The notes: generated by a model from the letters alone, not told the origin. 64,000 bases of DNA from Candidatus Tenderia sp. (GCA_031416075.1 JANOSY010000088.1:9504-73503); one strand, 5' to 3'; shown: positions 24,498 through 44,711, counted from the stretch's first letter. Numbers and translations are program-made.

Positions 24498-24825
24498 TAG
24501 AAACAGCTCCAATAACATTCCGGGCGGCCCGCACCAACTCATCCAACCCCTGTTTGTAACCCTTCATCTGCTGGACAAACGGCTCGTCAGGCACGGCATC
24601 AAGGGCGGCATCAAGGGCCTGGTTCACTGCCAGACGGGATGGCTCAATCCGCTCCCCTTTCAGCAGACGCATCACACAACCAGCAATGTGGCTATCGTAC
24701 GCCACCAGACCAGACTTCAGCCCGGCGGTGGCCACTGTCGCCCCGCTCGGAAAGGGGCGCTGCTGATGTATTCCAAACAGCCGCTCAAGCTCGCTCATAT
24801 CTGCATCTGCGCTAGAGGTCGCCAT
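24490..24825 (-). CDS. hypothetical 111-aa protein, translationally coupled between the 812-aa gene and tadA
   Basis: The ORF's start overlaps the stop of the upstream 812-aa ORF (ATGA-type), and its stop overlaps the tadA start by 8 nt. No recognisable family. Confidence 0.55.
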   Translation of the reverse strand: MATSSADADMSELERLFGIHQQRPFPSGATVATAGLKSGLVAYDSHIAGCVMRLLKGERIEPSRLAVNQALDAALDAVPDEPFVQQMKGYKQGLDELVRAARNVIGAVSNG

Positions 24826-28983: not shown

Positions 28984-31009
<2,026 letters not shown>

Positions 31010-31492
31010 ATGAAGATAGGCAATCTCATCACCCTACTACTGCTGGCACTGTCAGGCATCGGAGCAGCATTGGCCGACGGCGGCATTGAACTCACCATGG
31101 TCGCTCAGGAGCAGATCATCAGCCAGGATGCCAATGGCAAACAGGTAATCACCCTAACCAACCCCGCCTCTGTTGTGCCCGGCGACACCATTGTCTACAC
31201 CACCCACTACCGCAACAAGGGCAAAGTAATTGCGGAAAACGTGGTGATCACCAATCCCATCCCCAGCGACACCGCCTATATCACCCACAGCGCTTCCCAG
31301 GCAAATGCCAGCGTCAGTTACTCCGTGGATGGTGGCAAGCAGTTTGATACTCCGGCCAACCTGACCATCACCGGCAGCGACGGCAAACCACGCCCCGCCA
31401 CCGCCAATGACTACAGCCATATTCGCTGGACCCTGAAAAGCATCGCGCCCGACGCCAGTGGCAGTGTCAATTTTCACGCCCTGGTGCGCTAA
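31010..31492 (+). CDS. small secreted DUF11-repeat protein (160 aa)
   Basis: The ATG at 31010 has an AAGGAG SD and encodes signal peptide MKIGNLITLLLLALSGIGAALA. The DUF11-type motif is PGDTIVYTTHYRNKGKVIAENVVITNPIP. The track ORF starts upstream at 30935. Confidence 0.75.
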   Translation: MKIGNLITLLLLALSGIGAALADGGIELTMVAQEQIISQDANGKQVITLTNPASVVPGDTIVYTTHYRNKGKVIAENVVITNPIPSDTAYITHSASQANASVSYSVDGGKQFDTPANLTITGSDGKPRPATANDYSHIRWTLKSIAPDASGSVNFHALVR

Positions 31493-31709
31493 GCCAAACA
31501 GACAATGAGGCATTTAAACATGGACCGCAACCCACCCACCAACAGCGCCTGCCGGGCGTTTTGTGACATTAAGATCCTGGCCCGAATCCGCGGATCACCG
31601 CACTGACGACCACCATTGTTTCAATCTGACACGCAATAGAAGTTATCAGATGGGCGCGCGGGAAGTGCGCCAACCGAATCAGGGAAGATCCAGACAGGAG
31701 ATTACGAGG

Positions 31710-32771
31710 ATGAATAAAATACAAACTAACCACAAAAGGCTCAGCATCGGCGTTGCCGGTTTGATGATTATGGCCGCATCACCACACGCCCTGGCGTTAA
31801 CCGCCTCCGGCACCAACATCAGCAACAGTGCAACTGTCAATTATAATGTCTCGTCCACCCCACAGACCGCCATCACCAGCAATACTGAAACATTTATGGT
31901 CGACGCCAAGGTGGATCTGACCGTTGCCGGCACAGGGGGCAATATCAACGTCACCCCCGGCACCACCGCACAGGTGTTGAAATTCACCGTCACCAATACT
32001 GGCAACGAGGCGTTTGACTACGCCTTAAGCGCTGTGGCAGGGACCTTGAACTTCACCCCCACCAACGTCGCCATCTACGTGGATGATGGCGATGGTATCC
32101 GTAATGGCGCTGATACATTGACCAGCACCATCACCAATCTGGCAGCAGGCCTCGGCAAGGTGGTCTTTATCCAGGCCGACATCCCCGCCGGTGCCACCAA
32201 TACCCAGACGGCCAGCTACAACCTGAAGGCAGTGGCTGCCCTGGCCAGTGCGGCCGGGCCCATTCCTGCGGAAGCGGCTAACGTCAAAACCACCAAGCAG
32301 TATGTCTATGCCGACGGTGCTGGCAGTGCCCCAGGGGATGCCACACGGGACAAGACCCACTCCACCAGTCTGACCTACACGGCGGTCACCTCATCCCTGA
32401 CCATCAGCAAAGCATCCGCCGTGGTCTGGGATCCGGTCAATCTCGGTGTCAGCCCGCTGCATATCCCCGGCGCAGTGGTGGAATACACCATCACCATCAG
32501 TAACGGTGCCGGTGGCGCTCAGGCCGATGCCATTGTGCTCACCGATACCCTGGCAGCCAATCTGACCATCCCCCCTACCAGCAATAACTTTGCTGCTGGC
32601 AGGTCGATGCAGATCACCTCACCCAACCTTTACTCGGGTGCGGCAACGGCCCTGACTGACGCCAGTGATGCGGATCAGGGGACGGTGGCCGGGCAGCTGG
32701 TGACCGTCAACGGCATTGTGTTGACGGCCGGACAGTCGGCAACCGTCAAAATCAGGGCTGAAATTCAGTAA
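31710..32771 (+). CDS. secreted DUF11-repeat protein (353 aa)
   Basis: The ATG at 31710 (AGGAG SD) encodes signal peptide MNKIQTNHKRLSIGVAGLMIMAASPHALA. The C-terminal DUF11 motif is SPLHIPGAVVEYTITISNGAGGAQADAIVLTDTLAANL. The track ORF starts at 31563. Confidence 0.75.
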   Translation: MNKIQTNHKRLSIGVAGLMIMAASPHALALTASGTNISNSATVNYNVSSTPQTAITSNTETFMVDAKVDLTVAGTGGNINVTPGTTAQVLKFTVTNTGNEAFDYALSAVAGTLNFTPTNVAIYVDDGDGIRNGADTLTSTITNLAAGLGKVVFIQADIPAGATNTQTASYNLKAVAALASAAGPIPAEAANVKTTKQYVYADGAGSAPGDATRDKTHSTSLTYTAVTSSLTISKASAVVWDPVNLGVSPLHIPGAVVEYTITISNGAGGAQADAIVLTDTLAANLTIPPTSNNFAAGRSMQITSPNLYSGAATALTDASDADQGTVAGQLVTVNGIVLTAGQSATVKIRAEIQ

Positions 32772-32776
32772 CGCTG

Positions 32777-35700
32777 ATGTCCTGCACTGTTGTAAGGGCA
32801 ATCACAGCTCTCTGTCCCGGCCCACTGGCCGGGCAGCGGGCCCCCTTACACCTTTATATAACAACCCTTCTTGGATTCCTGGTACTGCTCTGGTCAACCA
32901 CGACCCTGGCCGTCCCCCCTGGCACCATCATCAGCAACGTTGCCAGCATCAATTACACCATTGGCGGCCTACCCGGTCTGCCACTCAGCTCCAACATCGA
33001 TCAATTTACCGTGGTCGCCGCCGCCAATACGGTGGATGGCACCATGAGTGTGGCCGCGCCAGGCGGTAATCTATATGCCGGTTCGCCCCGCGCCACCACC
33101 ATCACCCTTAACAATACCGGCACCACCCTGCTGAACAATCAACAACTTACCATTACCGCACCGCTTAACAGCCAAGTAACACTGACCGGCAGTGGGGTCA
33201 CGCTGGCCGCTTCCATGAGCAGCAGCACTACCACCACCTACATTTTTAACGTGGCAGATCTACCGGTTGCTGGCAGTCAGGACCTCCAGCTGGTACTGAC
33301 CGCAGCCCCCACCGCTGTCAGCCGCCCCCAGACATTCACCGTTGCACACAGTGTTGATGGCACAACACTCCAGCAGCAATCCCTGACACTGAGCGCCTTG
33401 CCACGCACGGCGGCCAGACTGGAGATTCTGCAACACTCCCTCAGTAACAGGGCACTCTCGGCCATCGTCAATTCCACGCTGATCCGGGGGGAGAGCGGTA
33501 CCTTTACCCCCATTGCGCCGCCGACACTGCCGGAGGCACCAGACCGGCTAGTGACCGACAGCCCCATCACACTGGAGCCTGCCAACGTATTCAGTAATAT
33601 CCAGACGCTTTTTATCCGGGTCACCGATCTGGATCAAAATCTCGACAGTACGGTTCAGGAGAGTCTCGACATCACCATCAAGCTGCCCGATCGAGACGAC
33701 TATGTCACGCTGCGAATCCTCGAAACCGGCATCGCAACCGGCATCTTCAGCGGTTACGTCACCTTTGAAAAAAACAGCGCCACCAGCAGTGGCGCGCTAC
33801 CGGTCAAAAGCAATTCCAAGCTGCTGGTCAGCTATACCGATACGATCGATGGTGACGACAGTGTCGCCGAGACCGTGCTGATCGACCCCTACGGCGTGGT
33901 ATTTGACAGCGCCACCGGCCAGCCACTGGATGGTTACACCGTACAGATGGTCAACACCGATACCGGCCTGCCCGCCACGGTCTATGGCGATGACGGTGTC
34001 AGCAGCTACCCCGCCACCGTGATCACCGGCAGCCCGGTGACCGACAGCAGTGGCAACCTCTACAGCTACAATACCGGCGAGTACCGTTTTCCACTGGCCC
34101 CAGCGGGTAATTACAGACTGGTCGTCACCTCACCCAGCAGTGCCCAGTATCGCTGGCCCTCAACCCAGTCAACCGAACAACTCCATAACCTCTCCCGCAG
34201 CAACCTTGCCATCACCCTCGGCTCGCGGGGTGAGCGCTTCCCGCTGCTGCCAGGACCACCGCTGCATATTGATATTCCTGTGGATCCGCTCACCACCCAG
34301 CTCTACCTCCAGCGCAGTGCCAACCGCGAGAGTGTCGCGACGGGTGACCTGATCCGCTACAGCGTCCAGGTTGAGAACAGCACCGCCACCACCCTCAACG
34401 ATGTGGTGCTGACCGAGTCCCTGCCCCACGGTTTCCGCCTGGAGCCAGGCTCCATCAACATGGACAACAACCCGCAACAACCCGCCACCATTGAGCCACA
34501 AGGTACAACCTTCACCCTGAATCTCGGTGCCATGATCGCCGGTGAGCGCCGCCAGATCCGCTACGTCAGCGCCGTGGGTGCAGCACGCCAAGGACTGGCC
34601 AGCAGCAGTAGCCACGCCCGCGCCAACAGCGGTGCCGCCAACTCCAACCACGCCAGACACGATGCCATGGTGTTTGATGAGTTGATGCGTGGCCGCGCCC
34701 TGCTGCTCGGGCAGGTCATTATCAACCCCACCGACAACGACCCCACCCCCGCCAGCGGCTTAAAAGGGGTGCGTATCTATATGGAAGATGGCCGTTACGC
34801 CATCAGCGATGAACGGGGCATGTTCCATTTTGACAACCTCACCCCCGGCAACCATCTAGTACAGCTCGATACCGCCACCCTGCCAGACCACTATTCGCTG
34901 GTGATGGGCGACCAGGACACACGCAACGCCCACAGCCCCAGCTCGCAATTTATCGACCTGCAGGGCGGCACACTCTGGCGTACAGAGTTCCACGTTGCCC
35001 GCAAGCCCACCCCCACGGGGGCGCTATCACTGCAACTCAGCAACACCGCACCCGACAGCCAAGGCAACATCCCCTATCAGGTAACGCTGGAGAACCGGGG
35101 TGTCAGCGCCAGCAACCTGCGGTTAACACTCATGATCCCCGCCACCACCCACTACCAGCCCGGCAGCAGCCACGTTGGCGGCCACCCCGTTGGCGATCCT
35201 GATATTGTCGGCAACGTGCTCATTTATCGCCTGAACAACGACCACCCAAGCGGTGGCTGGCAACGTCAGCTCCACCTCACCCTGCAGGGCGACACTGGCA
35301 ATAGTGCCAGTGGTGACAGCCGCGAATTGACCACCAAGGCGTCACTCCAGTTTGATACCCCCGCCCAGCAGAACCAGCGCCTGCCACTGCTGCAACATAC
35401 CTTTACACTCACCACGGAACAGGTCAAACAGGGGGAACAGAAGGTCCTGGCCGAAAGCCTCACCCTCGACAACTTCAACGGCAGCAGCAATGACCTCAGC
35501 GAGGAGCATAAAACAGTCGTGCAACAGCTGGCAGAACGCTGGGCCGGCCAGGATATCCACATCCACGCCATCGGCCACAGCGACAGCCGGGACATTATTC
35601 AGAAGGAGAAGGAGGACCAGCGCCTGTTTGCCAACAACCAGATCCTCTCTGAATATCGCGCCCATGAGGTCGCTAACCAGCTCCGCCAGCAGCTCTCCCT

Positions 35701-38700
35701 GCCAGCCAACCGCATCTCCTTTGAAAGCAAAGGGGAGGACGAACCTGTCGCCAGTAATGCCACATCGGCGGGTCGAGCGACCAACCGCCGGGTAGAGCTT
35801 CATATATATAGCGTGATCAGCACCACAACCCCACATATCCACGGTACTGCCACCACCAGTGAGCGTCTGAGCAGTACCATCACCGGCCTTACACCCGGTG
35901 AACAGCCAATAACCACCGCGACCGTTACCACAACCACGGAGTACAACAGCCAGTGGCTCGCCAGCCAGACCGCCAGTATTGAGTGGCTGCTGCCCCAGGA
36001 GCGACCCGCGCTCCCCACCACCAACATCGCCATCAAACACCACAGCGACCAGAACGTCACCCTCACCCTCAATGGCCAGCCCGTGGCCGCCATGAACTTC
36101 AACGGCACCCTCAACAACAGCCATGGTGCTGCCGTCAGCCACTGGGCCGGGGTTGATCTGAACGAGGGCGACAACCTCTTTCATGCCACCATCAGCAATG
36201 CCCAAGGTGAGTTTATTCAACAACTTAACCGCAACCTGCACTACTCCAGCGCCCCCGTGCGGGCAGAGATTGTGCCAACGCTCTCCACCCTCATTGCCGA
36301 TAGCATCACCCCGCCGGTCATCGCCGTACGCCTGTATGACAAAGACAGCCACCCCATCCACGCCGGCATGGAGATTGAGTACCAAATCAGCCCACCGCAC
36401 CAGCCCGCCCAAGAGAGTTTTAATACCGACAACATGGTTGCCGCCCCTGGCAGACGCCACTACGCCACCTCCGACAATGATGGTCTCATCCTGATCAAAC
36501 TCGCCGCCACCAACAGCACCGATGATCTACGTCTGCAGCTGCCCCTGGCCCACAACCGGACCGTAGAGTTAAAGAGCCGTCTCCAGGCCAAGGCCCGCGA
36601 CTGGATACTGGTGGGGCTTGCCGAAGGGGAGGCCGGTTTTAACAGCCTGAGTGGCAATATGGAGGCGCTCGACGGCAACGCCGCCCAGGATCATCTCTAC
36701 CAGGACCAACGTATCGCCTTCTTTGCCAAAGGCCAGGTGCTGGGTAAATGGCTGCTGACCCTGGCCTACGACTCCGATAAAGCACAACCACAAAAACAGG
36801 GGAACGATCCAGCGCTGTTCCAGGCCATCGACCCCGGCAGCTACTACACCGTCTATGGTGATGCCGGTCAAAACGGTTTTGATGCCGCCAGCAGCAAAAA
36901 GCTCTACCTCAAGCTGGAGCGCAACGCCTTCTACCTGCTCTTTGGCGACTACCAGACCCAGCTCAGCGAGACCCGTCTGGCCCGCTACGACCGCACCCTG
37001 ACCGGCATAAAGTCCCGTTATCAGAATGAACAATACAACCTCATGCTCTTTATCAGCGAAAACAGCCAATCCTTTGCCAAGGATGAGCTGCGCGGCCAGG
37101 GCAGCACCGGCCCCTACCCGCTGTCACGCAGCAACGTCGCCCTCAACAGCGAAAAGGTAGTGCTGGAGGTGCGCGACCGTTTCCGCAGCGAACAGATTGT
37201 CAGCAGCACACTGCTGGCGCGCCACAGCGACTACGACATCAACTATCTGGAGGGCAACATCACCTTCCGCGAGCCGGTATTCAGCACCGATGCCAACCTC
37301 AATCCGCAATACATCGTCATCAAATATGAGTCCTACACCGGCGACAGCCAGACCACCATCGGTGGCCGGGCCGAGGTGAAGGTCAACGACCAGCTCAAGA
37401 TCGGCGTTACCCAAGTGAGTGAAGGGCGCGCTACAGGTGATGCCCTGCTCGGGGCCGCCGATCTGCAATACAAGTTCAACGATGCCACCACCCTGCGCCT
37501 TGAGACGGCCCGCAGCCTGATTGCCGACGAAGGCAGCGGCAACGCCTATCTTGCCGAAGTTGAACACCAGACCGTCAACAGCAGTAGCAAACTCTATCTG
37601 CTGGATAACGACACCCATTTTGGTCTGGGACAAACCAACGCCAGCGAAAATGGCATGTACAAACAAGGGGTTGAGACACAGCTGCGAGCCAGCGACAATA
37701 TCAACATCAAAGGCCAGCTCTACCGCCAGGAGAGCAGCCTCAGCCACGCCAGCCGTGACCTGGCCGAGGCACAGGGCGAGATCAGCCGCGGCACTACCCG
37801 GCTGCGCGCCGGCCTGCGTGAGGTGCAGGATCAGCGCGGCGACAACAGCCAGCAGCAGTCGGAACAGCTCACCACCGGCATCAGTCAACAGCTGCTGGAC
37901 AGTAAGGTGACCCTGCGGGCCGACCGCGAGATCAACCTCAACAATGGCAATGACAGCATCGACTTCCCCGACAAAACCCGGCTTGGGGCCGACTACCACA
38001 TCACCCAGAAGATCAGCCTGTTTGCCGAACAGGAGGTGGCCAACAGCGACCTCCGCGATACCCGCCAGCGCCGTCTTGGTATCAAATCAAACCCCTGGAA
38101 CGGCGCGGAGATTTACAGCGGCCTGAGCCACTCCAGCAGTGATAACGGCACTGCAACCAGCGCCAATGTCGCCGCCCGCCAGCGCTGGCAGCTCAACCCA
38201 CAGTGGAGCGTTGATGCCGGTATCGAGCAGTCCCAAACCCTAAGCCAGAATCTGAACCAGAACCAAAGCAGCGGCCCAACCCTCAGCCCACCTGCCGCCA
38301 CGCCGTTCAACCTCAACAGCGGATTTGCCATCGGCAGCAACGAAGATTTCAGCGCCGCCTCCTTGGGTGTCACCTATAGCGACAAAGGGTGGCTCTGGAG
38401 CAGCCGTGTCGAGTCGCGCACCGGTGATCTGAGTGACCGTCGCCGCCTTGCCACCTCAGTACAGACATCACCACACAACGACCTCTCCATGCTCGCCTCC
38501 CTCAACCTGCTCACCAGCAGCAGCGCCCAGGGTGAACAGCAGGATAGCTCAACGGTGCAGCTCGGGGCCGCCTACCGCCCCAGCAATAGCCGCTGGCTGC
38601 TGCTGGATAAACTGACCCTGAAAAAAGAGCGCCATAACAACAGCACCCTCGACAGCAGCGGCTGGCGCATCATCAACCTGTTCAATGCCAATTACCGAGA

Positions 38701-39073
38701 AGGGCGCTGGCAGACATCGCTGCAATACGGTGCCAAGAGTGTTAAAGAGACCATCGACGGCAACGAACATAACCAGTTTGTTGACCTCAGCGGCATCGAG
38801 AGCCGTTATGATCTAACGCCAGAGTGGGACATCGGCCTGCATGGCAACATCCTGCACGCCTGGCAGCTCAACCAATATAACTACAACAGTGGTGTCTCGG
38901 TAGGCCACACCGTGGCCAAAAACATCTGGCTGAGCCTTGGCTACAACTTCAACGGCTTCCGCGACAGCGACTTTTCGCGCAGCAGCTATACCAGTCAGGG
39001 GCTGTTCCTCCGTTTCCGGATGAAATTTGACCAAACCACCGTGAAAGAGGCGATCCAGTGGGCCAGCCAATGA
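32777..39073 (+). CDS. giant (2098 aa) surface protein: N-terminal DUF11/Ig-like repeats, carboxypeptidase-regulatory-like domain, internal OmpA-like peptidoglycan-binding domain, C-terminal ~1000-aa beta-strand-rich (putative outer-membrane barrel) region
   Basis: DUF11 motif ATGDLIRYSVQVENSTATTLNDVVLTESLPHGF; CarbopepD-reg-like GVRIYMEDGRYAISDERGMFHFDNLTPGNHLVQLD. OmpA-like …GHSDSRD…NRRVELHIYS; C-terminus has alternating amphipathic strands ending …GLFLRFRMKF. Confidence 0.8.
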   Translation: MSCTVVRAITALCPGPLAGQRAPLHLYITTLLGFLVLLWSTTTLAVPPGTIISNVASINYTIGGLPGLPLSSNIDQFTVVAAANTVDGTMSVAAPGGNLYAGSPRATTITLNNTGTTLLNNQQLTITAPLNSQVTLTGSGVTLAASMSSSTTTTYIFNVADLPVAGSQDLQLVLTAAPTAVSRPQTFTVAHSVDGTTLQQQSLTLSALPRTAARLEILQHSLSNRALSAIVNSTLIRGESGTFTPIAPPTLPEAPDRLVTDSPITLEPANVFSNIQTLFIRVTDLDQNLDSTVQESLDITIKLPDRDDYVTLRILETGIATGIFSGYVTFEKNSATSSGALPVKSNSKLLVSYTDTIDGDDSVAETVLIDPYGVVFDSATGQPLDGYTVQMVNTDTGLPATVYGDDGVSSYPATVITGSPVTDSSGNLYSYNTGEYRFPLAPAGNYRLVVTSPSSAQYRWPSTQSTEQLHNLSRSNLAITLGSRGERFPLLPGPPLHIDIPVDPLTTQLYLQRSANRESVATGDLIRYSVQVENSTATTLNDVVLTESLPHGFRLEPGSINMDNNPQQPATIEPQGTTFTLNLGAMIAGERRQIRYVSAVGAARQGLASSSSHARANSGAANSNHARHDAMVFDELMRGRALLLGQVIINPTDNDPTPASGLKGVRIYMEDGRYAISDERGMFHFDNLTPGNHLVQLDTATLPDHYSLVMGDQDTRNAHSPSSQFIDLQGGTLWRTEFHVARKPTPTGALSLQLSNTAPDSQGNIPYQVTLENRGVSASNLRLTLMIPATTHYQPGSSHVGGHPVGDPDIVGNVLIYRLNNDHPSGGWQRQLHLTLQGDTGNSASGDSRELTTKASLQFDTPAQQNQRLPLLQHTFTLTTEQVKQGEQKVLAESLTLDNFNGSSNDLSEEHKTVVQQLAERWAGQDIHIHAIGHSDSRDIIQKEKEDQRLFANNQILSEYRAHEVANQLRQQLSLPANRISFESKGEDEPVASNATSAGRATNRRVELHIYSVISTTTPHIHGTATTSERLSSTITGLTPGEQPITTATVTTTTEYNSQWLASQTASIEWLLPQERPALPTTNIAIKHHSDQNVTLTLNGQPVAAMNFNGTLNNSHGAAVSHWAGVDLNEGDNLFHATISNAQGEFIQQLNRNLHYSSAPVRAEIVPTLSTLIADSITPPVIAVRLYDKDSHPIHAGMEIEYQISPPHQPAQESFNTDNMVAAPGRRHYATSDNDGLILIKLAATNSTDDLRLQLPLAHNRTVELKSRLQAKARDWILVGLAEGEAGFNSLSGNMEALDGNAAQDHLYQDQRIAFFAKGQVLGKWLLTLAYDSDKAQPQKQGNDPALFQAIDPGSYYTVYGDAGQNGFDAASSKKLYLKLERNAFYLLFGDYQTQLSETRLARYDRTLTGIKSRYQNEQYNLMLFISENSQSFAKDELRGQGSTGPYPLSRSNVALNSEKVVLEVRDRFRSEQIVSSTLLARHSDYDINYLEGNITFREPVFSTDANLNPQYIVIKYESYTGDSQTTIGGRAEVKVNDQLKIGVTQVSEGRATGDALLGAADLQYKFNDATTLRLETARSLIADEGSGNAYLAEVEHQTVNSSSKLYLLDNDTHFGLGQTNASENGMYKQGVETQLRASDNINIKGQLYRQESSLSHASRDLAEAQGEISRGTTRLRAGLREVQDQRGDNSQQQSEQLTTGISQQLLDSKVTLRADREINLNNGNDSIDFPDKTRLGADYHITQKISLFAEQEVANSDLRDTRQRRLGIKSNPWNGAEIYSGLSHSSSDNGTATSANVAARQRWQLNPQWSVDAGIEQSQTLSQNLNQNQSSGPTLSPPAATPFNLNSGFAIGSNEDFSAASLGVTYSDKGWLWSSRVESRTGDLSDRRRLATSVQTSPHNDLSMLASLNLLTSSSAQGEQQDSSTVQLGAAYRPSNSRWLLLDKLTLKKERHNNSTLDSSGWRIINLFNANYREGRWQTSLQYGAKSVKETIDGNEHNQFVDLSGIESRYDLTPEWDIGLHGNILHAWQLNQYNYNSGVSVGHTVAKNIWLSLGYNFNGFRDSDFSRSSYTSQGLFLRFRMKFDQTTVKEAIQWASQ

Positions 39074-39092
39074 CAACCGCCACAACATCAAC

Positions 39093-42000
39093 ATGGACAG
39101 TACGATGAGATACGGACGTTTTATTCAGCTCTGCCTGCTGGCCACCCTGCTGCTGGTGGTACTTTTGCCTCGTCCAGGGGTAGCGGCCATCACCGCCACC
39201 ACCCTATTTGAAGGGTCAACGGATGGCGATGCCAGCGCTTATACTGGACCCTCACTCAGCCCGTCGGCCAACAACCTGATTCTCGTCTGGATAACCAATA
39301 CCCGCTCCTCCTCCCCCACCGTGCCCACCTTTACCGGTAACGGCCTCACCTGGGTGCAGGTCGCCACCGTCACCTGGGGCAGCAGCGGCTCCCCCACCGC
39401 ACGTACCACCCTGTTCCGGGCCATGGGATCCTCCCCCGCTACCGGGATCAACAGCATCGATTTTGCCGGCAATACCCAGACCGGCGTGGCGATGTCAATG
39501 ATCCAGTTCAACAACGTCGACATCACCGGCAGCAACGGTGCCAACGCCCTGGTTCAGAGTGTCACCGGCAGAACTGATAGCGCCTCCTCCACCGCCGGGC
39601 TGAGCCTCACCCTGGCAGCGCTGGGCAATGTTGCCAACGCCTCTGTGGGCGGCTTTTCCAACTTTATCAACTCCGCCACCTCCATCTCCCCAGGGTCCGG
39701 CTACACCGCCTCGTCCGGCACCACCTATCTGGCCCCCAGCATCAGCCTGCGCGCCGAGTGGAAGAGTGCGGGCAGCACCATCGTCAACGTCACACAGAGC
39801 GGTACCTCCCACATTGGCGGGATCGCCGTCGAACTCAAGGCCGACCTCTGTGCCGGCAATGTGGTCACCACCATCGCCAACAGTGGTGATGGCTCCCTGC
39901 GTGAATGTATCATCAAGGCCAACCTCAACCCCGGCACCACCATCACCTTCAACATTACCGCTGCGGCCAACCAATCTTCCGGTGCCAACTCATGGTGGCG
40001 TATCACCCCCACCACCGCGCTACCCACCATCACCGCTGCCAATACGGTGATTGATGCCACCACCCAGACCAGTAATCGTGGCAATACCAATACCCTCGGC
40101 CCGGAAGTTGAACTCAACGGTGCCACCGTCGGTGCCGGGGGGTGGGACGGTTTTGGTGTGGCTTCGCCAGCCACCGGAGTCATCATCCGCGGGTTCATCA
40201 TCAATCAGTGGTCAGGGTCAGGTATCTCACTCTGGAGCGGCAGCGGCACCATCAGGGGCAACTACATCGGTACCAACTACGCCGGTACCAGTGCCCTGGC
40301 CAATACCAGCTACGGCCTCTACCTCAATACCAATGGCAATACCGTCGGTGGCACCAGTGCTGCGGACCGTAACGTCATTGCCGGTAACGGCGGGCCTGGC
40401 ATCTACATTGTGAGCAACAGCAATACCGTGCAGGGCAACTACATCGGCGTCAACGCCAGTGCTGGGGCGATAGTTGCCAATAGTGGCCACGGCGTACAGA
40501 TACTCTCCGGTGCCACCGGCAATACCATTGGGGGCACAGCGGCGGGGGCAGGCAATGTGATTGCTGGCAACGGCGCTGATGGCATCAACCATAGTTCAAC
40601 AGGCAGCAATACCGTACAAGGCAACTACATCGGTACCAACGCCAGCAGCGCGACACTCTCTAATGGTGGCAATGGCATTGCCATCTCTGCCGGCACACTC
40701 AATGTGGGCAACGCCTCTGAATCCCAATCAAACATTATTGGCCCCAACAGTGGTGCGGGCATCAACCTGGCGGGCGGAACAGTGAATCTGGCAGGCAGTG
40801 TCACCGTGCGTGGCAACATGGCCCTGGCCAGCGGCACACTCGCCATGGGCAGCGCCACACTCAACCTCTCCGGTAACTGGAGCCGTACCAGCACCACCGT
40901 CACAACCGGCACCTCCACCGTGGTGCTCAACGGCACTGCCCTGCAGAGCCTGACCATGAACGGCAGTAACTTCAATAATCTGACCATCACCAACGGCAGT
41001 GTTGCAGGTATCAGTTTTAATGATGGTTTTAACGCCGCCAACATCACCAATACCACCCCCGCCTCCCGGCTGACCTTTAAGGCGGGCGCAACCTACACCC
41101 TCTCCGGCACCCTGACACTGGTCGGCAGCAGTGGCAACCAGATCATTCTGCTCAGCGACTCCCCCGGCACCCGCTTTACCCTGAACCCAACTGCTGGCGC
41201 GCAGAGTGTCAACTATGTCAACGTCAAGGATTCACAGGCCTCAACCAACAACATCACCGCCGATAACTCCACCAACAGTGGTGGCAATGATGATGCCGAG
41301 GCCGCACCACGCTGGGTCTTTAATGCCCCCGATACCACGCCGCCCGCCAGGATCATCGACCTGACGGTCACCTCCTCCACCACCTCATCCATCACCCTGA
41401 ACTGGACTTCACCGGGAGATGACAATAACAGTGGCACGGCTACCAGCTATGACCTGCGTTACTCCACCTCGCCCATCACGGCGGGCAACTGGGCCAGCGC
41501 CACACAGGCCGTTGGCGAACCAACACCCTTGGTGGCCGGTAGCAGCCAATCATTTAGCGTGACCGGCCTGGCCGCTGCCACCACCTACTACTTTGTAATG
41601 ACCACCAGCGATGAGGTCCCCAATACCTCCGCCCTATCTGACTCAGCGGTTGGCACCACCGGCGGCGGTGGTGGCGGCAATGTGAGCTACTACGCCAAAC
41701 GCAGTAACAGTGTCTCCATCGCCTCCGGCATCACCAGCAACAGCGGCTCCTGCGGCACAGATCCAACCGCCTACTACATTGAAGAGCTGTCAAAAAACAT
41801 CAGCGACATGTGTGTCACAGCAAATGCCTACCGCTGGGAGCAGTTGACGGCCGGCAGCTACTCGGACCACTACTTCAACACCGCCTATGTGGCCAATACC
41901 ACCGTTACCGGCGTCTCTTATCAGGTCACCATCCGCGACAGCGGAACAGTAGGTTTCCAGCTTTTTTATGTCACCTCCGGCGGTACCAAAACCTATCTTG

Positions 42001-44711
42001 GCACTGAAGTCACCCAGGTAAACAGTGGCATAGAAACCAATAACTACATCCTTAACCTCTCCGGCCAGTCTGGCACCATCCCCACCGGGGCAAAACTTGG
42101 GTTTCGTACCCGTGGTATCTCTGTCAGCCCCAGCTTCAGGATCTATGTGGGTAATCTGGATGGCAGGACACCCAGCAACCTCTCCGGTCATCTAATCGTC
42201 AACGAGGCCGTGGGCAGCAGCGATACCACCGCCCCGGCCAGTGTCACGCTCTCTACCGGTACCATCACCAACAACTCCGTGCTGCTGAACTGGGTATCAC
42301 CGGGGGATGATGGCAATACCGGCACCGCCCAGATCTACGACATCCGTTACTCCACCGCCGCCATCACGGCGGGCAACTGGGCCAGCGCCACCCAGGTAGG
42401 CGGGGAACCAACACCTCTGGTGGCGGGCACTGCCCAGACCTATACCGTGACCGGGCTGGCCCCCAATACCCTCTACTACTTTGCCATCAAAACCGGCGAC
42501 GAGACACCCAACTGGTCAGCGGTCTCCAACTCCCCCAGCGCCACCACCTACGATCCACCGGTGGGTGGCTTTAGTGTCGATAATGTGATCCCCGCCACCC
42601 AGATCAGCCAGTCCACCAACGGTTCAGGCATCATCACCATCAACTGGAAGGGGCGCGACAATCAGGCCAATAACGTCACACTCAAAACCTTTCAGTACAG
42701 CGTGGACGGTGGGGCTAGCTGGAACGCCCCCACCAACGGCGACGCCTCCGCCGCACTCTCCGCCACCTGGAGCAACAACGGCGGCAGTGGCTGGACCACC
42801 GCCACCACCTTGGCTGCCGCTCCTGTCAACAGCTTCACCTTCAATACCAAACATGCCAATGTCTCGGGGTTAAACGGGGTGGACCAGAACGATGTACGGG
42901 TCCGGTTTCTATTACGTGATGCCACTATGGATAGCCAGAGCTATGTCACCTCGACCGATTTTCGTATCGATGCCCTTGCCCCTACCGCGACCATTGGCAG
43001 CGCCATTTACGATGCTGCCAACGACCTGCTGACCATCACCGGCACCAACTTCACCACCATTGCGGCGGCCAGCACCGACATCAAAGCCTATGTCGACTGG
43101 AGCAAATTTGTCTGGGACATCAACGGCGACAACGCCACCACCACCGACATCAGCTTTGTGCTGGGTGACATCACCAGCCTGATCATCACCGACGATACCA
43201 CCATCACCCTGCAGTTCAGTGCCGCCAAAGGGATCGCCATCGAAGCCACCGCCGGCTACAGCACCACAGGCGGGGTCGACACCCTCGATGTTGCCGCCGG
43301 TTTTGCCCGAGACGACTACGGCAATGCCGCCACCACCGATGCGGTGGCCAACGGGCCACTCGTTACCACCTCGGTCTCAGGGATACTCTACGATACCGAC
43401 CGCACCACCAGCCTCGGTTTTGGCATGACGGTACGGCTACTCATCAACGGCGCCAGCATGGGCTCCACCACCACCGACGGCAGTGGTCGCTATACCTTCT
43501 GGAATAACGTCAGTGCCGGCAATGCCATTCTGGTCTACATCGACAATGGTGCCAGCACCGCCATCAGCGCCACCGTTACCGCCAACGCCAGCCTCTCGGA
43601 CTTTGATCTCTACGCCAGCCATCTGGTGGCCCGCCACGATAATGGGGGCGCACTCAGCAACGCCAACCTGGGAAGTGCCAAGGGGGCGTATGTCGACACC
43701 GATATTGTTTACTCCGTCACCGGCAGCGCGTTAACCGTCAGTGGCAGCGCCACCCGGCTACACATCCCGGCGGGCAAAAGTTTTACCCCGGAGGGCAACG
43801 TCACCACCCCGGCCATGAGTAATCTTGGCACCTTTGTCGGCGGCAGTGGTGCCATTACCATCAATGGCAACCTGAGTAACAGCGGCAGTTATACCGCCAG
43901 CAGCGCCACCACCACTGTTGCTGCTGACTTCAGCAACAGCGGTACCTTTACAGCCGCAGGCGGTACCGTGCTGCTTAACGGTATCAATCAAAACATCACG
44001 GGGACCACTACCTTCTTCAACCTGACCAAAACCGTGGCCACCGCCGACACCCTATTTTTCAGCGTCGGCTCCACCACCACCGTCACGGGTAGCGCCACCC
44101 TGCAGGGGGCATCGGGCCAGCCACTGAGTCTGCTCTCGATCACCCCCGGCAGCCGCTGGAACTTCAACATCGGCAGCAGCGCCACTAAGTCCTTCAGTTT
44201 TCTGAATGTGATCGACAGTGACGCCTCAGGCTCTGCCGCTGCCAAAAAACCGCTCATCGCCCAACCCAGCAACTCTACCGACAGCGGCAACAATGTGGAC
44301 TGGTTTGGCCTGCCCTCCATCTCGGTGATCAAATCCAGTACCCTGATATCCGACCCCGTTAACGGCACCACCAGCCCGCTGCATATCCCGGGGGCAATCC
44401 TTAACTATCAGATCCTCACCACCAACTCTGGCAACGGCTCACCCGATACCAATACCGTGGTGGTAACCGATGCACTGGACTCCAGCAAGCTTGAGTTTGA
44501 TGTCACCACCGGCATCACCTTTACCGCCAATACCTCGGGACTGACACTGGGCACAGTGAGTTATGCCCATACCGCCACCCCCACCACCTATACCTACACC
44601 CCCACCGGCCCCTACGACGCCAATGTGGCGGGCATCAAGATCACCACCAGCGGTACGTTTGCCAGCGCCGGTGCCAGCTTTACCCTCAACTTCCGCGTCC
44701 GCATAAAATAG
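39093..44711 (+). CDS. giant (1872 aa) secreted protein with parallel beta-helix repeats, two fibronectin-III-like modules, a carboxypeptidase-regulatory-like domain and a C-terminal DUF11 domain
   Basis: Signal peptide (…IQLCLLATLLLVVLLPRPGVAA). Repeated GNYIGTNxxGT…NVIAGNG (PbH1-like) units. Twice …ITLNWTSPGDDNNSGTATSYDLRYS…TTYYF… (FN3-like). C-terminal SPLHIPGAILNYQILTTNSGNGSPDTNTVVVTDALDSS. Confidence 0.8.
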   Translation: MDSTMRYGRFIQLCLLATLLLVVLLPRPGVAAITATTLFEGSTDGDASAYTGPSLSPSANNLILVWITNTRSSSPTVPTFTGNGLTWVQVATVTWGSSGSPTARTTLFRAMGSSPATGINSIDFAGNTQTGVAMSMIQFNNVDITGSNGANALVQSVTGRTDSASSTAGLSLTLAALGNVANASVGGFSNFINSATSISPGSGYTASSGTTYLAPSISLRAEWKSAGSTIVNVTQSGTSHIGGIAVELKADLCAGNVVTTIANSGDGSLRECIIKANLNPGTTITFNITAAANQSSGANSWWRITPTTALPTITAANTVIDATTQTSNRGNTNTLGPEVELNGATVGAGGWDGFGVASPATGVIIRGFIINQWSGSGISLWSGSGTIRGNYIGTNYAGTSALANTSYGLYLNTNGNTVGGTSAADRNVIAGNGGPGIYIVSNSNTVQGNYIGVNASAGAIVANSGHGVQILSGATGNTIGGTAAGAGNVIAGNGADGINHSSTGSNTVQGNYIGTNASSATLSNGGNGIAISAGTLNVGNASESQSNIIGPNSGAGINLAGGTVNLAGSVTVRGNMALASGTLAMGSATLNLSGNWSRTSTTVTTGTSTVVLNGTALQSLTMNGSNFNNLTITNGSVAGISFNDGFNAANITNTTPASRLTFKAGATYTLSGTLTLVGSSGNQIILLSDSPGTRFTLNPTAGAQSVNYVNVKDSQASTNNITADNSTNSGGNDDAEAAPRWVFNAPDTTPPARIIDLTVTSSTTSSITLNWTSPGDDNNSGTATSYDLRYSTSPITAGNWASATQAVGEPTPLVAGSSQSFSVTGLAAATTYYFVMTTSDEVPNTSALSDSAVGTTGGGGGGNVSYYAKRSNSVSIASGITSNSGSCGTDPTAYYIEELSKNISDMCVTANAYRWEQLTAGSYSDHYFNTAYVANTTVTGVSYQVTIRDSGTVGFQLFYVTSGGTKTYLGTEVTQVNSGIETNNYILNLSGQSGTIPTGAKLGFRTRGISVSPSFRIYVGNLDGRTPSNLSGHLIVNEAVGSSDTTAPASVTLSTGTITNNSVLLNWVSPGDDGNTGTAQIYDIRYSTAAITAGNWASATQVGGEPTPLVAGTAQTYTVTGLAPNTLYYFAIKTGDETPNWSAVSNSPSATTYDPPVGGFSVDNVIPATQISQSTNGSGIITINWKGRDNQANNVTLKTFQYSVDGGASWNAPTNGDASAALSATWSNNGGSGWTTATTLAAAPVNSFTFNTKHANVSGLNGVDQNDVRVRFLLRDATMDSQSYVTSTDFRIDALAPTATIGSAIYDAANDLLTITGTNFTTIAAASTDIKAYVDWSKFVWDINGDNATTTDISFVLGDITSLIITDDTTITLQFSAAKGIAIEATAGYSTTGGVDTLDVAAGFARDDYGNAATTDAVANGPLVTTSVSGILYDTDRTTSLGFGMTVRLLINGASMGSTTTDGSGRYTFWNNVSAGNAILVYIDNGASTAISATVTANASLSDFDLYASHLVARHDNGGALSNANLGSAKGAYVDTDIVYSVTGSALTVSGSATRLHIPAGKSFTPEGNVTTPAMSNLGTFVGGSGAITINGNLSNSGSYTASSATTTVAADFSNSGTFTAAGGTVLLNGINQNITGTTTFFNLTKTVATADTLFFSVGSTTTVTGSATLQGASGQPLSLLSITPGSRWNFNIGSSATKSFSFLNVIDSDASGSAAAKKPLIAQPSNSTDSGNNVDWFGLPSISVIKSSTLISDPVNGTTSPLHIPGAILNYQILTTNSGNGSPDTNTVVVTDALDSSKLEFDVTTGITFTANTSGLTLGTVSYAHTATPTTYTYTPTGPYDANVAGIKITTSGTFASAGASFTLNFRVRIK

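What the first reader, a model, noticed from the sequence alone, without database searches (positions are those of the whole stretch)
32777..39073. 2098-aa protein combining DUF11 repeats, an internal OmpA-like peptidoglycan anchor and a ~1000-aa C-terminal beta-barrel-like region
The order of modules is unusual. The N-terminal ~900 aa are Ig/DUF11-like and carboxypeptidase-regulatory-like repeats. An OmpA-C-like segment (…IGHSDSRD…NRRVELHIYS) sits in the middle rather than at an end. The C-terminal ~1000 aa are rich in alternating hydrophobic/aromatic strands ending GLFLRFRMKF, like very large outer-membrane barrels. This fits a self-anchoring surface fibre (autotransporter-like orientation) with a peptidoglycan tether, an architecture I cannot assign to a described secretion type. 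The ATG at 32777 lies 5 nt after the preceding stop, with no room for an SD, so coupling or a different start is possible.
Basis: inference. Interest (0 to 1): 0.6.

Follow-up and report, generated by a model that had tools for sequence, protein, structure and literature searches.

The report
Outer-membrane base of a split-domain fibre
This 2098-residue protein is real: a stalk of Ig-like domains, a peptidoglycan-binding module and a very large outer-membrane barrel. It belongs to a widespread, undescribed gene cassette whose partner proteins look built to snap onto its N-terminal strand, pointing to a possible new kind of Gram-negative surface fibre.

Summary

The protein is not a lone oddity. 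The barrel family has 3331 cluster representatives and occurs in at least 587 species. It always sits in a cassette with a small ~165-aa CLIPPER protein, one or two ~340-450-aa proteins and a large adhesin-like protein.

The partners end in a CLIPPER (CnaA-like) domain that lacks its last, Asn-bearing strand but keeps an invariant Lys and Asp. The giant and the mid-size proteins begin, just after the signal peptide, with G-T-x-I-x-N-x-A-x-V-x-Y. Appending that strand completes the isopeptide-domain profile TIGR04226 (+12 bits; controls +0.4 and +3.3 bits).

Best reading (about 0.5): the giant is the peptidoglycan-tethered outer-membrane base, and probably the pore, of a fibre assembled by strand complementation and perhaps locked by Lys-Asn isopeptide bonds. 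The autotransporter reading is only partly right. No description was found in the literature searched. The mechanism is inferred, not shown.

The parts
31010..31492 (+). Gene A. A small secreted protein (160 aa) with a single CLIPPER-like domain. It ends on the strand '...DASGSVNFHALVR', has no N-terminal donor motif, and as a class lacks the conserved Lys and has Asn in place of the Asp.
   Evidence: Pfam DUF11 E 2.6e-8. Gene call in L001. The A-class consensus has 'vvi.NPvPe' where B has 'D.ipan'. hhalign of A against the B acceptor gives Prob 97.5. Present next to the giant in most loci.
31710..32771 (+). Gene B. A 353-aa pilin-like protein with a signal peptide (aa 1-29), an N-terminal donor segment (aa ~30-70, nt 31797-31919, 'SGTNISNSATVNY') and a C-terminal truncated CLIPPER 'acceptor' domain (aa 229-353, nt 32394-32768) that carries the Lys (TISK) and Asp (LTDTL).
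   Evidence: The N-terminus resembles the giant's N-terminus (E 3e-5). The C-terminal domain resembles the C-terminal domain of gene D (E 3e-10). Chimera tests. K, D and N are invariant in alignment A3.
32777..32911 (+). Giant protein: signal peptide (aa 1-45, hydrophobic core LYITTLLGFLVLLWSTTTLA).
   Evidence: Read from the sequence. Homologues show the same layout. No signal-peptide predictor was available.
32912..33031 (+). Giant protein: N-terminal donor extension (aa 46-85, 'VPPGTIISNVASINY...SSN'). It is highly conserved but modelled with low confidence.
   Evidence: G, N, A, S and N are at least 90% conserved across 56 giants. The motif is found in 35 non-redundant giants, with Asn in 31. 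pLDDT is 55-64 against about 90 for the following domains.
33041..35467 (+). Giant protein: stalk of about six Ig-like beta-sandwich domains (aa ~89-897). It includes CarboxypepD_reg (aa 373-458, nt 33893-34150) and a complete CLIPPER domain (aa 510-603, nt 34304-34585).
   Evidence: Pfam. AF2 pLDDT 86.8. Foldseek hits to BcpA, EbpB and PrgB Ig-like domains.
35474..35806 (+). Giant protein: OmpA-like peptidoglycan-binding domain (aa 900-1010). It is an optional module in the family.
   Evidence: Absent from P0018-P0024 and similar homologues, with the flanking regions retained.
35981..36583 (+). Giant protein: two Ig-like domains immediately before the barrel (aa ~1069-1269).
   Evidence: AF2 strands at model residues 30-229, pLDDT about 80-94.
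36599..36877 (+). Giant protein: the most conserved segment of the family (DWILVGLAEG, AFFAKG, P.xYYTxYGD; aa ~1275-1367). It is modelled with low confidence and may be a gate, plug or partner-binding element.
   Evidence: Invariant and near-invariant columns. pLDDT below 50 at model residues 239-272 and 311-328. These motifs served as the search patterns that retrieved 587 loci.
36716..39022 (+). Giant protein: very large outer-membrane beta-barrel (aa ~1314-2082, about 30-36 strands). A short C-terminal helix follows (aa 2086-2097).
39093..44711 (+). Gene D. An 1872-aa secreted adhesin-like protein with a beta-helix-like repeat region and two fn3 domains. It has no N-terminal donor motif. 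Its C-terminal truncated CLIPPER 'acceptor' domain (aa 1742-1872, nt 44316-44708) carries the Lys (SVIK).
   Evidence: The D-class alignment shows the Lys in 15 of 15 true members, all ending '...F.l.f+V+v+'.

Best explanation
The 2098-aa protein is the outer-membrane base of a multi-protein surface fibre encoded by the cassette 31010..44711.

Proposed topology. The C-terminal ~770 aa form a very large barrel in the outer membrane. The OmpA-like domain and the two Ig-like domains before the barrel stay in the periplasm, and the OmpA domain ties the base to peptidoglycan. The N-terminal Ig-like stalk ends in a free conserved strand (G-T-x-I-x-N-x-A-x-V-x-Y).

Proposed assembly. That strand inserts in trans into the incomplete C-terminal CLIPPER (CnaA-like) domain of a partner protein. 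This is donor-strand complementation. It places the strand's Asn next to the partner's invariant Lys and Asp, so an autocatalytic Lys-Asn isopeptide bond can lock the joint.
- Gene D has an acceptor only and would be the distal adhesin.
- Gene B (and, in other genomes, a second B-type paralogue) has both donor and acceptor and would be the repeating or adaptor subunit.
- The giant has a donor only and would be the terminal, membrane-anchored subunit.
- Gene A has an acceptor that lacks the Lys and Asp. It would bind donor strands reversibly, as a chaperone or cap.
- The barrel is the only outer-membrane component in the cassette, so it is probably also the pore through which the stalk and fibre reach the surface.

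What is shown: the domain architecture, the barrel fold (by prediction), the cassette synteny, the motif and residue conservation, and the profile completion.

What is inferred: complementation in trans, the covalent bond, polymer formation, the translocon role and surface exposure.
For: Architecture.

Family and synteny.
- More than 290 full-length homologues.
- 3331 representative clusters, with the barrel always C-terminal.
- At least 587 species across Gamma-, Beta-, Alpha- and Zetaproteobacteria, Desulfuromonadales/Geobacter, Desulfosarcina, Nitrospirota, Lentisphaeria and Myxococcota.
- The order [D]-B2-A-B-giant recurs in about 45 loci with enough flank.

Split domain.
- The C-terminal domain of B resembles that of D (E 3e-10).
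- The mature N-terminus of B resembles that of the giant (E 3e-5).
- The donor motif occurs in 50 non-redundant B proteins (Asn in 45) and 35 giants (Asn in 31), and is absent from the A and D classes.
- A donor HMM hits 125 of 5768 ORFs; 124 of these are B proteins or giants, with the hit typically near the N-terminus (median position 45 in B proteins, 81 in giants).
- The B and D proteins aligned, and the A proteins as listed, stop right after the 'G.s.t..f.v.i' strand.
- In 18 diverse 'acceptor + own donor' chimeras the invariant residues include the Lys of strand 1, the Asp of 'D.iP' and the donor Asn.

Profile completion against TIGR04226 (isopeptide-forming fimbrial domain, 123 positions).
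- Window B acceptor alone: 22.7 bits, covering positions 20-104.
- With its own donor: 34.6 bits, positions 20-123 (cut-off 30).
- With the reversed donor: 26.0 bits.
- With the N-terminus of D: 23.1 bits.
- With the giant's donor: 28.4 bits, reaching position 122.
- L029: 17.8 rises to 29.9 bits.
- Povalibacter L032: no hit rises to 22.8 bits; its reversed control gives no hit.
- Pfam DUF11 coverage extends from 16-79 to 16-112 of 114 positions.
- hhalign against the giant's own complete internal CLIPPER domain: the acceptor stops at column 101; with the donor it extends to column 116, aligning donor Asn to reference Asn; the reversed donor stops at 102.

Other points.
- The giant's donor segment is highly conserved yet has pLDDT 55-64 in the monomer model.
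- No sortase, PapD-like chaperone or other outer-membrane protein is present in the cassette.
- Precedents for strand exchange followed by an isopeptide lock: BsaA (PMC11580942) and archaeal threads (PMC9715654).
Against: Complementation in trans is therefore inferred from sequence only.

For B proteins the N-terminal strand could complete the C-terminal domain of the same chain. This nested arrangement is known from the pilus adhesin RrgA (noted in PMC12617251), and it would remove the polymer.

The hhalign score did not rise when the donor was added (67.4 against 69.7). PDB profile hits to RspB and the CLIPPER structure 9IFR are not significant (E about 1). The B2-type chimera from L012 gave no TIGR04226 hit.

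The donor Asn is replaced in about 10% of sequences, and the acceptor Asp is not conserved in the two D proteins closest to the window (L003, L008).

TM-scores to known translocons are low.

There is no experimental datum for any member, and surface exposure of the stalk is untested.
Confidence: 0.5

Rival explanations
1. One-to-one display rather than a polymer. The giant's N-terminal strand captures a single partner (adhesin D or the small protein A) by complementation, covalent or not. The B proteins close on themselves in cis, with the N-terminal strand completing their own C-terminal domain, as in nested CnaA-like domains of Gram-positive adhesins. The result is a stalk tipped with an exchangeable head, not a pilus.
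For: The orphan donor (giant) and orphan acceptors (D, A) require pairing in trans, but B carries both halves. Nested isopeptide domains with large insertions exist, for example in RrgA (noted in PMC12617251). The stalk alone is already about six Ig-like domains long.
Against: Cassettes usually carry two B-type paralogues, which is typical of major and minor pilins. The donor motifs of B and the giant are alike, suggesting the same trans mode. The middle of B is only about 160 aa, and no test showed that its ends can meet.
Confidence: 0.2
2. A self-sufficient, autotransporter-like adhesin exports its own N-terminal Ig-like passenger through its C-terminal barrel and is tethered to peptidoglycan by the OmpA module. 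The neighbouring genes are unrelated adhesins.
For: The order N-terminal passenger then C-terminal barrel matches type Va polarity. The OmpA and barrel modules are real.
Against: There is no Autotransporter (PF03797) or inverse-autotransporter family hit. The barrel is about 770 aa with roughly 30 or more strands, against 12. Cassette synteny is strict across phyla. The shared donor motif and the profile-completion results link the giant to its neighbours.
Confidence: 0.12
3. A structural tether or channel linking the outer membrane to peptidoglycan, analogous to Deinococcus SlpA or OmpM. The barrel is a porin-like anchor, the OmpA module binds peptidoglycan, and the whole Ig-like stalk and the cassette partners remain periplasmic as an envelope scaffold.
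Against: The OmpA module is dispensable in many homologues. There is no SLH domain or coiled coil. Partner D has an adhesin-like beta-helix and fn3 domains typical of extracellular proteins. The structural similarity is generic (TM about 0.2).
Confidence: 0.08

Closest known systems
Chaperone-usher pili (FimD/PapC usher, FimC/PapD chaperone, Fim/Pap pilins)
   Same: The logic is the same. Sec-exported subunits have an incomplete Ig-like fold that is completed by an N-terminal strand from the next subunit. The tip adhesin has an acceptor only. A dedicated large outer-membrane barrel is encoded in the same operon, and a terminal subunit fixes the fibre to the base.
'Exchange-and-lock' fibres: Clostridium perfringens BsaA (TasA family) and Sulfolobus thread filaments
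   Same: An N-terminal strand inserts into the neighbouring subunit's beta-sheet, after which a spontaneous intermolecular isopeptide bond forms (PMC11580942; PMC9715654).
   Different: Those occur in a monoderm bacterium and an archaeon with no outer membrane, use unrelated folds (TasA-like; thread subunit Saci_0406) and different residues (Asn57 to the N-terminal amine in threads). No TasA-family hit was found here. This system is diderm and includes a giant barrel base.
Sortase-assembled Gram-positive pili (BcpA, SpaA, RrgB, basal pilin EbpB)
   Same: Subunits are built from CnaA/CnaB-type isopeptide domains. The stalk of the giant matches BcpA and EbpB by Foldseek. B plus its donor matches TIGR04226, the RrgB D2 isopeptide domain. 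Both have a basal subunit that fixes the fibre to the wall.
   Different: No LPXTG signal, C-terminal membrane anchor or sortase gene is present. The intersubunit link would be autocatalytic, inside a split domain. Anchoring is by an outer-membrane barrel and non-covalent OmpA-peptidoglycan binding.
CLIPPER/DUF11 fibrillar adhesins of Gram-negative bacteria (for example Acinetobacter silvestris B9T28_05395, PDB 9IFR)
   Same: They have CLIPPER domains with a Lys-Asn isopeptide catalysed by Asp, and are combined with an OmpA-like anchoring domain (PMC12617251).
   Different: In those proteins the domains are complete and the bonds intramolecular, OmpA is C-terminal, and there is no barrel. Here the terminal domain is split between proteins, OmpA is internal, and a giant barrel follows.
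Very large single-chain outer-membrane barrels: Deinococcus SlpA (30 strands), LptD (26), T9SS SprA (36)
   Same: These are the best structural matches. SlpA likewise couples a peptidoglycan-binding module to a giant barrel.
   Different: Sequence identity is 7-14% and TM about 0.2, with no shared families. SlpA uses SLH plus a coiled coil. SprA and LptD work with different partners and substrates.

Membership tests
OmpA-like peptidoglycan-binding domain (PF00691) | Profile match above the gathering score, with the GH(T/S)D ... N..LS..RA ... NRRVE motifs. | tested here: met
   40.3 bits against 27.2. TssL-type match E 1.3e-22. Alignment to 4b62 and OprF shows the motifs. Actual peptidoglycan binding cannot be tested here.
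CLIPPER / DUF11 (PF01345), CnaA-like isopeptide domain | Profile match above the gathering score. | tested here: met
   Giant aa 510-603: 26.9 bits against 24.6. Gene A: 34.6 bits. The C-terminal domain of B passes only when its own N-terminal strand is appended (22.8 rises to 25.3 bits, coverage 16-112 of 114).
CLIPPER / DUF11 (PF01345), CnaA-like isopeptide domain | A Lys (first strand), Asp/Glu and Asn (late strand) triad within one domain that forms an intramolecular bond. | tested here: inconclusive
   In B-type proteins the Lys and Asp lie in the C-terminal domain and the invariant Asn lies in the N-terminal extension. Bond formation, and whether it is cis or trans, cannot be tested with these tools.
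Classical autotransporter (type Va) | A 12-strand C-terminal barrel (PF03797) with a helical linker through the pore. | tested here: not met
   No PF03797 hit at E up to 0.1. The barrel region is about 770 aa with about 33-37 predicted strands.
Inverse autotransporter (type Ve, intimin/invasin) | An N-terminal LysM and 12-strand barrel, with a C-terminal Ig-like passenger. | tested here: not met
   The module order is the opposite, and there is no IAT_beta or LysM hit.
Chaperone-usher pathway | An Usher family barrel (PF00577) with PapC_N and PapC_C domains. | tested here: not met
Chaperone-usher pathway | A PapD-like periplasmic chaperone gene in the operon. | tested here: not met
   Genes A, B and D give no PapD-family hit. 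The homologous cassettes contain no such gene.
Sortase-dependent pili | An LPXTG sorting signal on subunits and a sortase gene. | tested here: not met
   A, B and D end on a beta-strand with no LPXTG or hydrophobic tail. The ten neighbouring ORFs scanned are housekeeping or unrelated genes (one has no Pfam match), and none is a sortase.
TonB-dependent receptor / SusC | A Plug (PF07715) and TonB_dep_Rec (PF00593) 22-strand barrel; in SusC, an N-terminal CarboxypepD_reg domain. | tested here: not met
   Only CarboxypepD_reg matches, and it lies mid-stalk (aa 373-458). There are no Plug or TonB_dep_Rec hits.
Type V (Bacteroidota FimA/Mfa) pili | Lipoprotein precursors with a lipobox Cys, and the FimA/Mfa fold. 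| tested here: not met
   B and A have signal-peptidase-I-type ends (ALA|L, ALA|D) with no Cys. No FimA-family hits.
SlpA / OmpM outer-membrane-to-peptidoglycan tethers | An SLH domain and coiled coil preceding the barrel. | tested here: not met
TasA/BsaA 'exchange-and-lock' fibres | A TasA/camelysin-like fold, with a SipW signal peptidase in the operon. | tested here: not met
   No such Pfam hit for A, B or D, and no SipW-like gene. The resemblance is in mechanism only.

The most novel reading that the evidence does not exclude
This cassette encodes a new class of Gram-negative pilus, distinct from chaperone-usher, type IV, type V, curli and sortase pili. Subunits would polymerise by a naturally split CnaA-like (CLIPPER) domain, in effect a native SpyTag/SpyCatcher pair. 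The N-terminal tag of one subunit completes the C-terminal domain of the next and is locked by an autocatalytic Lys-Asn isopeptide bond. One giant protein would serve at once as basal pilin, peptidoglycan tether and usher, with a barrel of about 30-36 strands among the largest single-chain outer-membrane barrels known.
Probability: 0.35. Interest if true: 0.9.

Novelty: new variant of a known kind. Interest (0 to 1): 0.78.

Why it matters
Whether diderm bacteria build covalently linked, isopeptide-stabilised fibres without sortases is an open question; the CLIPPER survey (PMC12617251) raises the related issue of how far such domains extend beyond Gram-positive bacteria.

This family gives a concrete, widespread candidate (3331 sequence clusters, at least 587 species) with sharply defined, mutable residues: one Lys, one Asp and one Asn. 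Several cultured carriers are available for testing:
- Povalibacter uvarum DSM 26723
- Geomobilimonas luticola JCM 17780
- Geomonas spp.
- Desulfosarcina alkanivorans PL12
- Asticcacaulis sp. YBE204

If the model holds, it adds a new assembly pathway for surface fibres and a new giant outer-membrane barrel family with a probable translocon role. It also offers a set of natural orthogonal tag/catcher pairs of biotechnological interest. Even if only the architecture holds, about 770 aa of conserved barrel without any Pfam or NCBIfam model deserves a family definition.

Tried and rejected
I worked around it by aligning a window sub-range with full-length homologues.
- PHROGs showed only OmpA-like hits and no phage link.
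- phmmer of a single chimera against the PDB returned only chance hits. A profile of 18 chimeras against the PDB returned RspB 3v10 and CLIPPER 9IFR at E about 1. These align in the expected places but are not significant, so I did not use them as evidence.
- hhalign of the donor alignment alone against a complete CLIPPER domain gave no signal (Prob 0.7).
- A crude alternating-hydrophobicity scan was uninformative.
- The promoter/terminator scan found nothing above shuffles inside the cassette.
- The afdb50 fold library was unavailable, so no annotated AlphaFold-database relatives could be sought.
- Eight literature searches found no description of the cassette. The DUF11 mentions in the Geobacter/Syntrophobacter literature concern archaeal proteins.
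- Rejected identities: autotransporter, inverse autotransporter, usher, TonB-dependent receptor/SusC, type V pilus and sortase pilus (see the membership tests).
- I did not determine the organism of the window. The closest relatives are uncultured Gammaproteobacteria and 'Deltaproteobacteria' MAGs.

Full report
**1. The observation**

ORF 32777..39073 (+) exists as described: ATG start, 2098 aa.

The stop of the upstream gene ends at 32771, so 5 nt separate the two genes and there is no SD-like sequence. No other ATG/GTG/TTG start lies before the hydrophobic signal-peptide core. Homologues align from residue 1. The 58%-identical homologue in L005 has the same 5-nt spacing. Translational coupling is therefore the simplest reading of the start.

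**2. Modules of the giant protein**

Pfam gives three matches above the gathering score:
- CarboxypepD_reg, aa 373-458
- DUF11/CLIPPER, aa 510-603
- OmpA, aa 900-1004 (E 4.3e-10)

NCBIfam matches the TssL-type OmpA extension at E 1.3e-22. The nearest solved chains are P. aeruginosa TssL1 (4b62) and the OprF C-terminal domain, with the GHSD / N..LS..RA / NRRVE motifs aligned.

Nothing in Pfam or NCBIfam covers aa 1015-2098.

AF2 on aa 44-1060 with 55 homologues gives pLDDT 86.8. It shows a chain of beta-sandwich domains followed by the OmpA fold. Foldseek matches Gram-positive pilins and Ig-like stalks: BcpA, basal pilin EbpB and PrgB.

AF2 on aa 1040-2098 gives pLDDT 82.5 and pTM 0.77. It shows two Ig-like domains, a poorly modelled but extremely conserved segment (DWILVGLAEG, AFFAKG, P.xYYTxYGD), and then about 33-37 antiparallel strands up to aa ~2082.
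- Foldseek ranks SlpA, LptD and SprA first, but with TM about 0.2.

The barrel is therefore real, very large, and without a close solved relative.

**3. A large family in a fixed cassette**

- The word-indexed search found more than 290 homologues, most of them full length at 1900-2100 aa. They are annotated only as 'OmpA family' or 'DUF11 domain-containing'.
- An exhaustive phmmer search with the barrel alone found 3331 cluster representatives (1242 at E up to 1e-30). The barrel is always at the C-terminus.
They span Gamma-, Beta-, Alpha- and Zetaproteobacteria, Desulfuromonadales/Geobacter, Desulfosarcina, Nitrospirota, Lentisphaeria and Myxococcota.
- Some homologues lack exactly the OmpA module (aa ~885-1003) and keep everything else. 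The peptidoglycan tether is therefore optional.

In the window the giant is the third of four co-directional genes:

| Gene | Coordinates | Product |
|---|---|---|
| A | 31010..31492 | 160 aa |
| B | 31710..32771 | 353 aa |
| giant | 32777..39073 | 2098 aa |
| D | 39093..44711 | 1872 aa |

They sit between guaB and xseA. The same four genes sit at the same chromosomal site in L003. Equivalent cassettes occur in Geomobilimonas and in an OmpA-less gammaproteobacterial locus.

HMM classification of all ORFs in 80 loci shows the recurrent order [D]-B2-A-B-giant. D is sometimes downstream or on the other strand. No sortase, PapD-like chaperone or second outer-membrane protein belongs to the cassette.

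**4. The split domain**

The last 125 aa of B and the last 131 aa of D are homologous (32% identity, E 3e-10). The mature N-termini of B and of the giant are also similar (E 3e-5).

Across loci, B-type proteins and giants start 3-5 residues after the signal peptide with G-T-x-I-x-N-x-A-x-V-x-Y.
- The Asn is present in 45 of 50 non-redundant B proteins and in 31 of 35 giants.
- A and D proteins have no such motif.
- A donor HMM hits 125 of 5768 ORFs. Of these, 124 are B proteins or giants, with the hit usually near the N-terminus (median position 45 and 81).

The B and D proteins aligned end right after the strand that, in a complete CLIPPER domain, precedes the Asn-bearing strand; A proteins end the same way. 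The giant's own internal domain supplies the complete reference: consensus '...I.Y..EV...G.A.N.A.A....SN.A.A.V.V'.

I concatenated each B protein's C-terminal domain with its own N-terminal segment. Alignment of 18 diverse chimeras leaves eight invariant residues, among them the Lys of the first strand, the Asp of 'D.iP' and the donor Asn.

Profile tests against TIGR04226 (isopeptide-forming fimbrial domain, 123 positions, cut-off 30):

| Construct | Bits | Profile positions covered |
|---|---|---|
| Window B acceptor alone | 22.7 | 20-104 |
| + own donor | 34.6 | 20-123 |
| + reversed donor (control) | 26.0 | 20-116 |
| + N-terminus of D (control) | 23.1 | 20-106 |
| + giant's donor | 28.4 | 20-122 |
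| L029 acceptor alone | 17.8 | 4-105 |
| L029 + own donor | 29.9 | 4-123 |
| Povalibacter L032 acceptor alone | no hit | - |
| Povalibacter L032 + own donor | 22.8 | 4-123 |
| Povalibacter L032 + reversed donor (control) | no hit | - |

Pfam DUF11 coverage extends from 16-79 to 16-112 of 114 positions and crosses the gathering score. hhalign against the complete internal CLIPPER domain extends through the junction, placing donor Asn on reference Asn. The total score does not improve, and the reversed donor does not extend.

The A class is homologous to the acceptor (hhalign Prob 97.5) but has Asn where B has the Asp, and has no conserved Lys.

The giant's donor segment is among the most conserved parts of the N-terminal half. 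Yet it has pLDDT 55-64 in the monomer model, against about 90 for the domains that follow. This is the pattern expected for a segment that folds on a partner.

**5. Mechanism proposed**

Shown:
- the architecture;
- the predicted barrel;
- the synteny;
- the complementary distribution of 'tag' and 'truncated domain' among cassette proteins (giant has a tag only; D and A have a truncated domain only; B has both);
- the invariant Lys/Asp/Asn;
- the profile completion.

Inferred:
- The tag completes the truncated domain of another chain, and a Lys-Asn isopeptide bond then forms. This resembles BsaA (PMC11580942) and archaeal threads (PMC9715654).
- D is the distal adhesin, B-type proteins are the repeating or adaptor subunits, and the giant is the terminal, membrane-fixed subunit.
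- A, lacking the catalytic residues, is a reversible cap or chaperone for donor strands.
- The barrel is the only outer-membrane element in the cassette. Its size is in the range of known barrels that pass folded proteins (PapC 24 strands, SprA 36). It is therefore probably the conduit for stalk and fibre.
- The OmpA module and the two Ig-like domains before the barrel stay periplasmic.

I put about 0.5 on this overall. Trans pairing of the giant's tag with some cassette partner is more likely than that (about 0.65). The covalent bond, polymer formation and the translocon role are each less certain (about 0.45-0.5).

**6. Rivals**

- Single-head display, with B closing in cis like nested CnaA-like domains. 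This is the strongest rival and needs only a monomer or multimer structure prediction to settle.
It is contradicted by barrel size, the lack of family hits, and the links to the neighbouring genes.
- An SlpA-like envelope tether. It is weakened by the optional OmpA module and the adhesin-like partner D.

**7. Comparison with known systems**

The system works most like chaperone-usher pili combined with an 'exchange-and-lock' joint. It uses building blocks related to sortase-pilus and CLIPPER adhesin domains. It fails the defining membership features of every one of these families (see the membership table).

No paper in the searchable library describes it. The CLIPPER survey treats only intramolecular bonds and adhesins with a C-terminal OmpA domain. 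Subscription-only literature could not be searched.

**8. Verdict**

The finding marks an uncharacterised, widespread envelope system with a specific, testable mechanism. I rate it a new variant of a known kind, namely strand-complemented surface fibres with a dedicated outer-membrane barrel. I give about a one-in-three chance that it proves to be a pilus class of its own.

Noticed in passing
window 47843-48700 (repeats at 48011-48121 and 48573-48601), with 48801..52594 (-): GC-rich 9/15/24-nt tandem repeats (GGCGGTGGC)n lie in an otherwise gene-poor gap. On the minus strand they fall in small ORFs, one with a poly-Pro run ('PPPPPPPPPPPIPPRPPFIPP', 63 aa) and one with 'HTAATATAATAAH' repeats (98 aa). 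These lie directly downstream of an overlapping AsnB-like amidotransferase and ABC exporter gene pair. This could be a small peptide modification/export locus.
   Followed up: no
window 24825..27263 (-): An 811-aa ORF with no Pfam family at E up to 0.01, lying between a tRNA-adenosine-deaminase-like gene and guaA.
   Followed up: no
window 28984..30444 (-) and 44800..46161 (+); L003 6124-7584 and 22553-23917: The cassette is inserted between guaB and xseA. The same insertion site is used by the 46%-identical cassette in GCA_002007545.1. In other lineages the cassette sits in unrelated contexts.
   Followed up: partly
window 36599-36877 (giant aa ~1275-1367): The most conserved motifs of the whole family (DWILVGLAEG, AFFAKG, P.xYYTxYGD) fall in the least confidently modelled part of the C-terminal half (pLDDT below 50). 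This may be a gate, plug or partner-binding element of the barrel.
   Followed up: partly
window 31010..31492 (gene A) and A-class proteins in L005-L084: The small cassette protein is a truncated CLIPPER-like domain. As a class it has lost the Lys and carries Asn in place of the catalytic Asp ('NPvPe'). It would therefore be a non-covalent acceptor, perhaps a chaperone or cap for donor strands.
   Followed up: partly
L012-L030 and other loci, for example L012 4495-5481 and L029 4555-5550: Most cassettes outside the window's clade carry a second B-type paralogue of about 330-350 aa upstream of gene A. It ends '...TI.F.V.I(N/D)'. In a few of these the donor Asn is replaced by Ser, Thr, Gly or Ile (L019, L022, L045), which suggests non-covalent variants.
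   Followed up: partly
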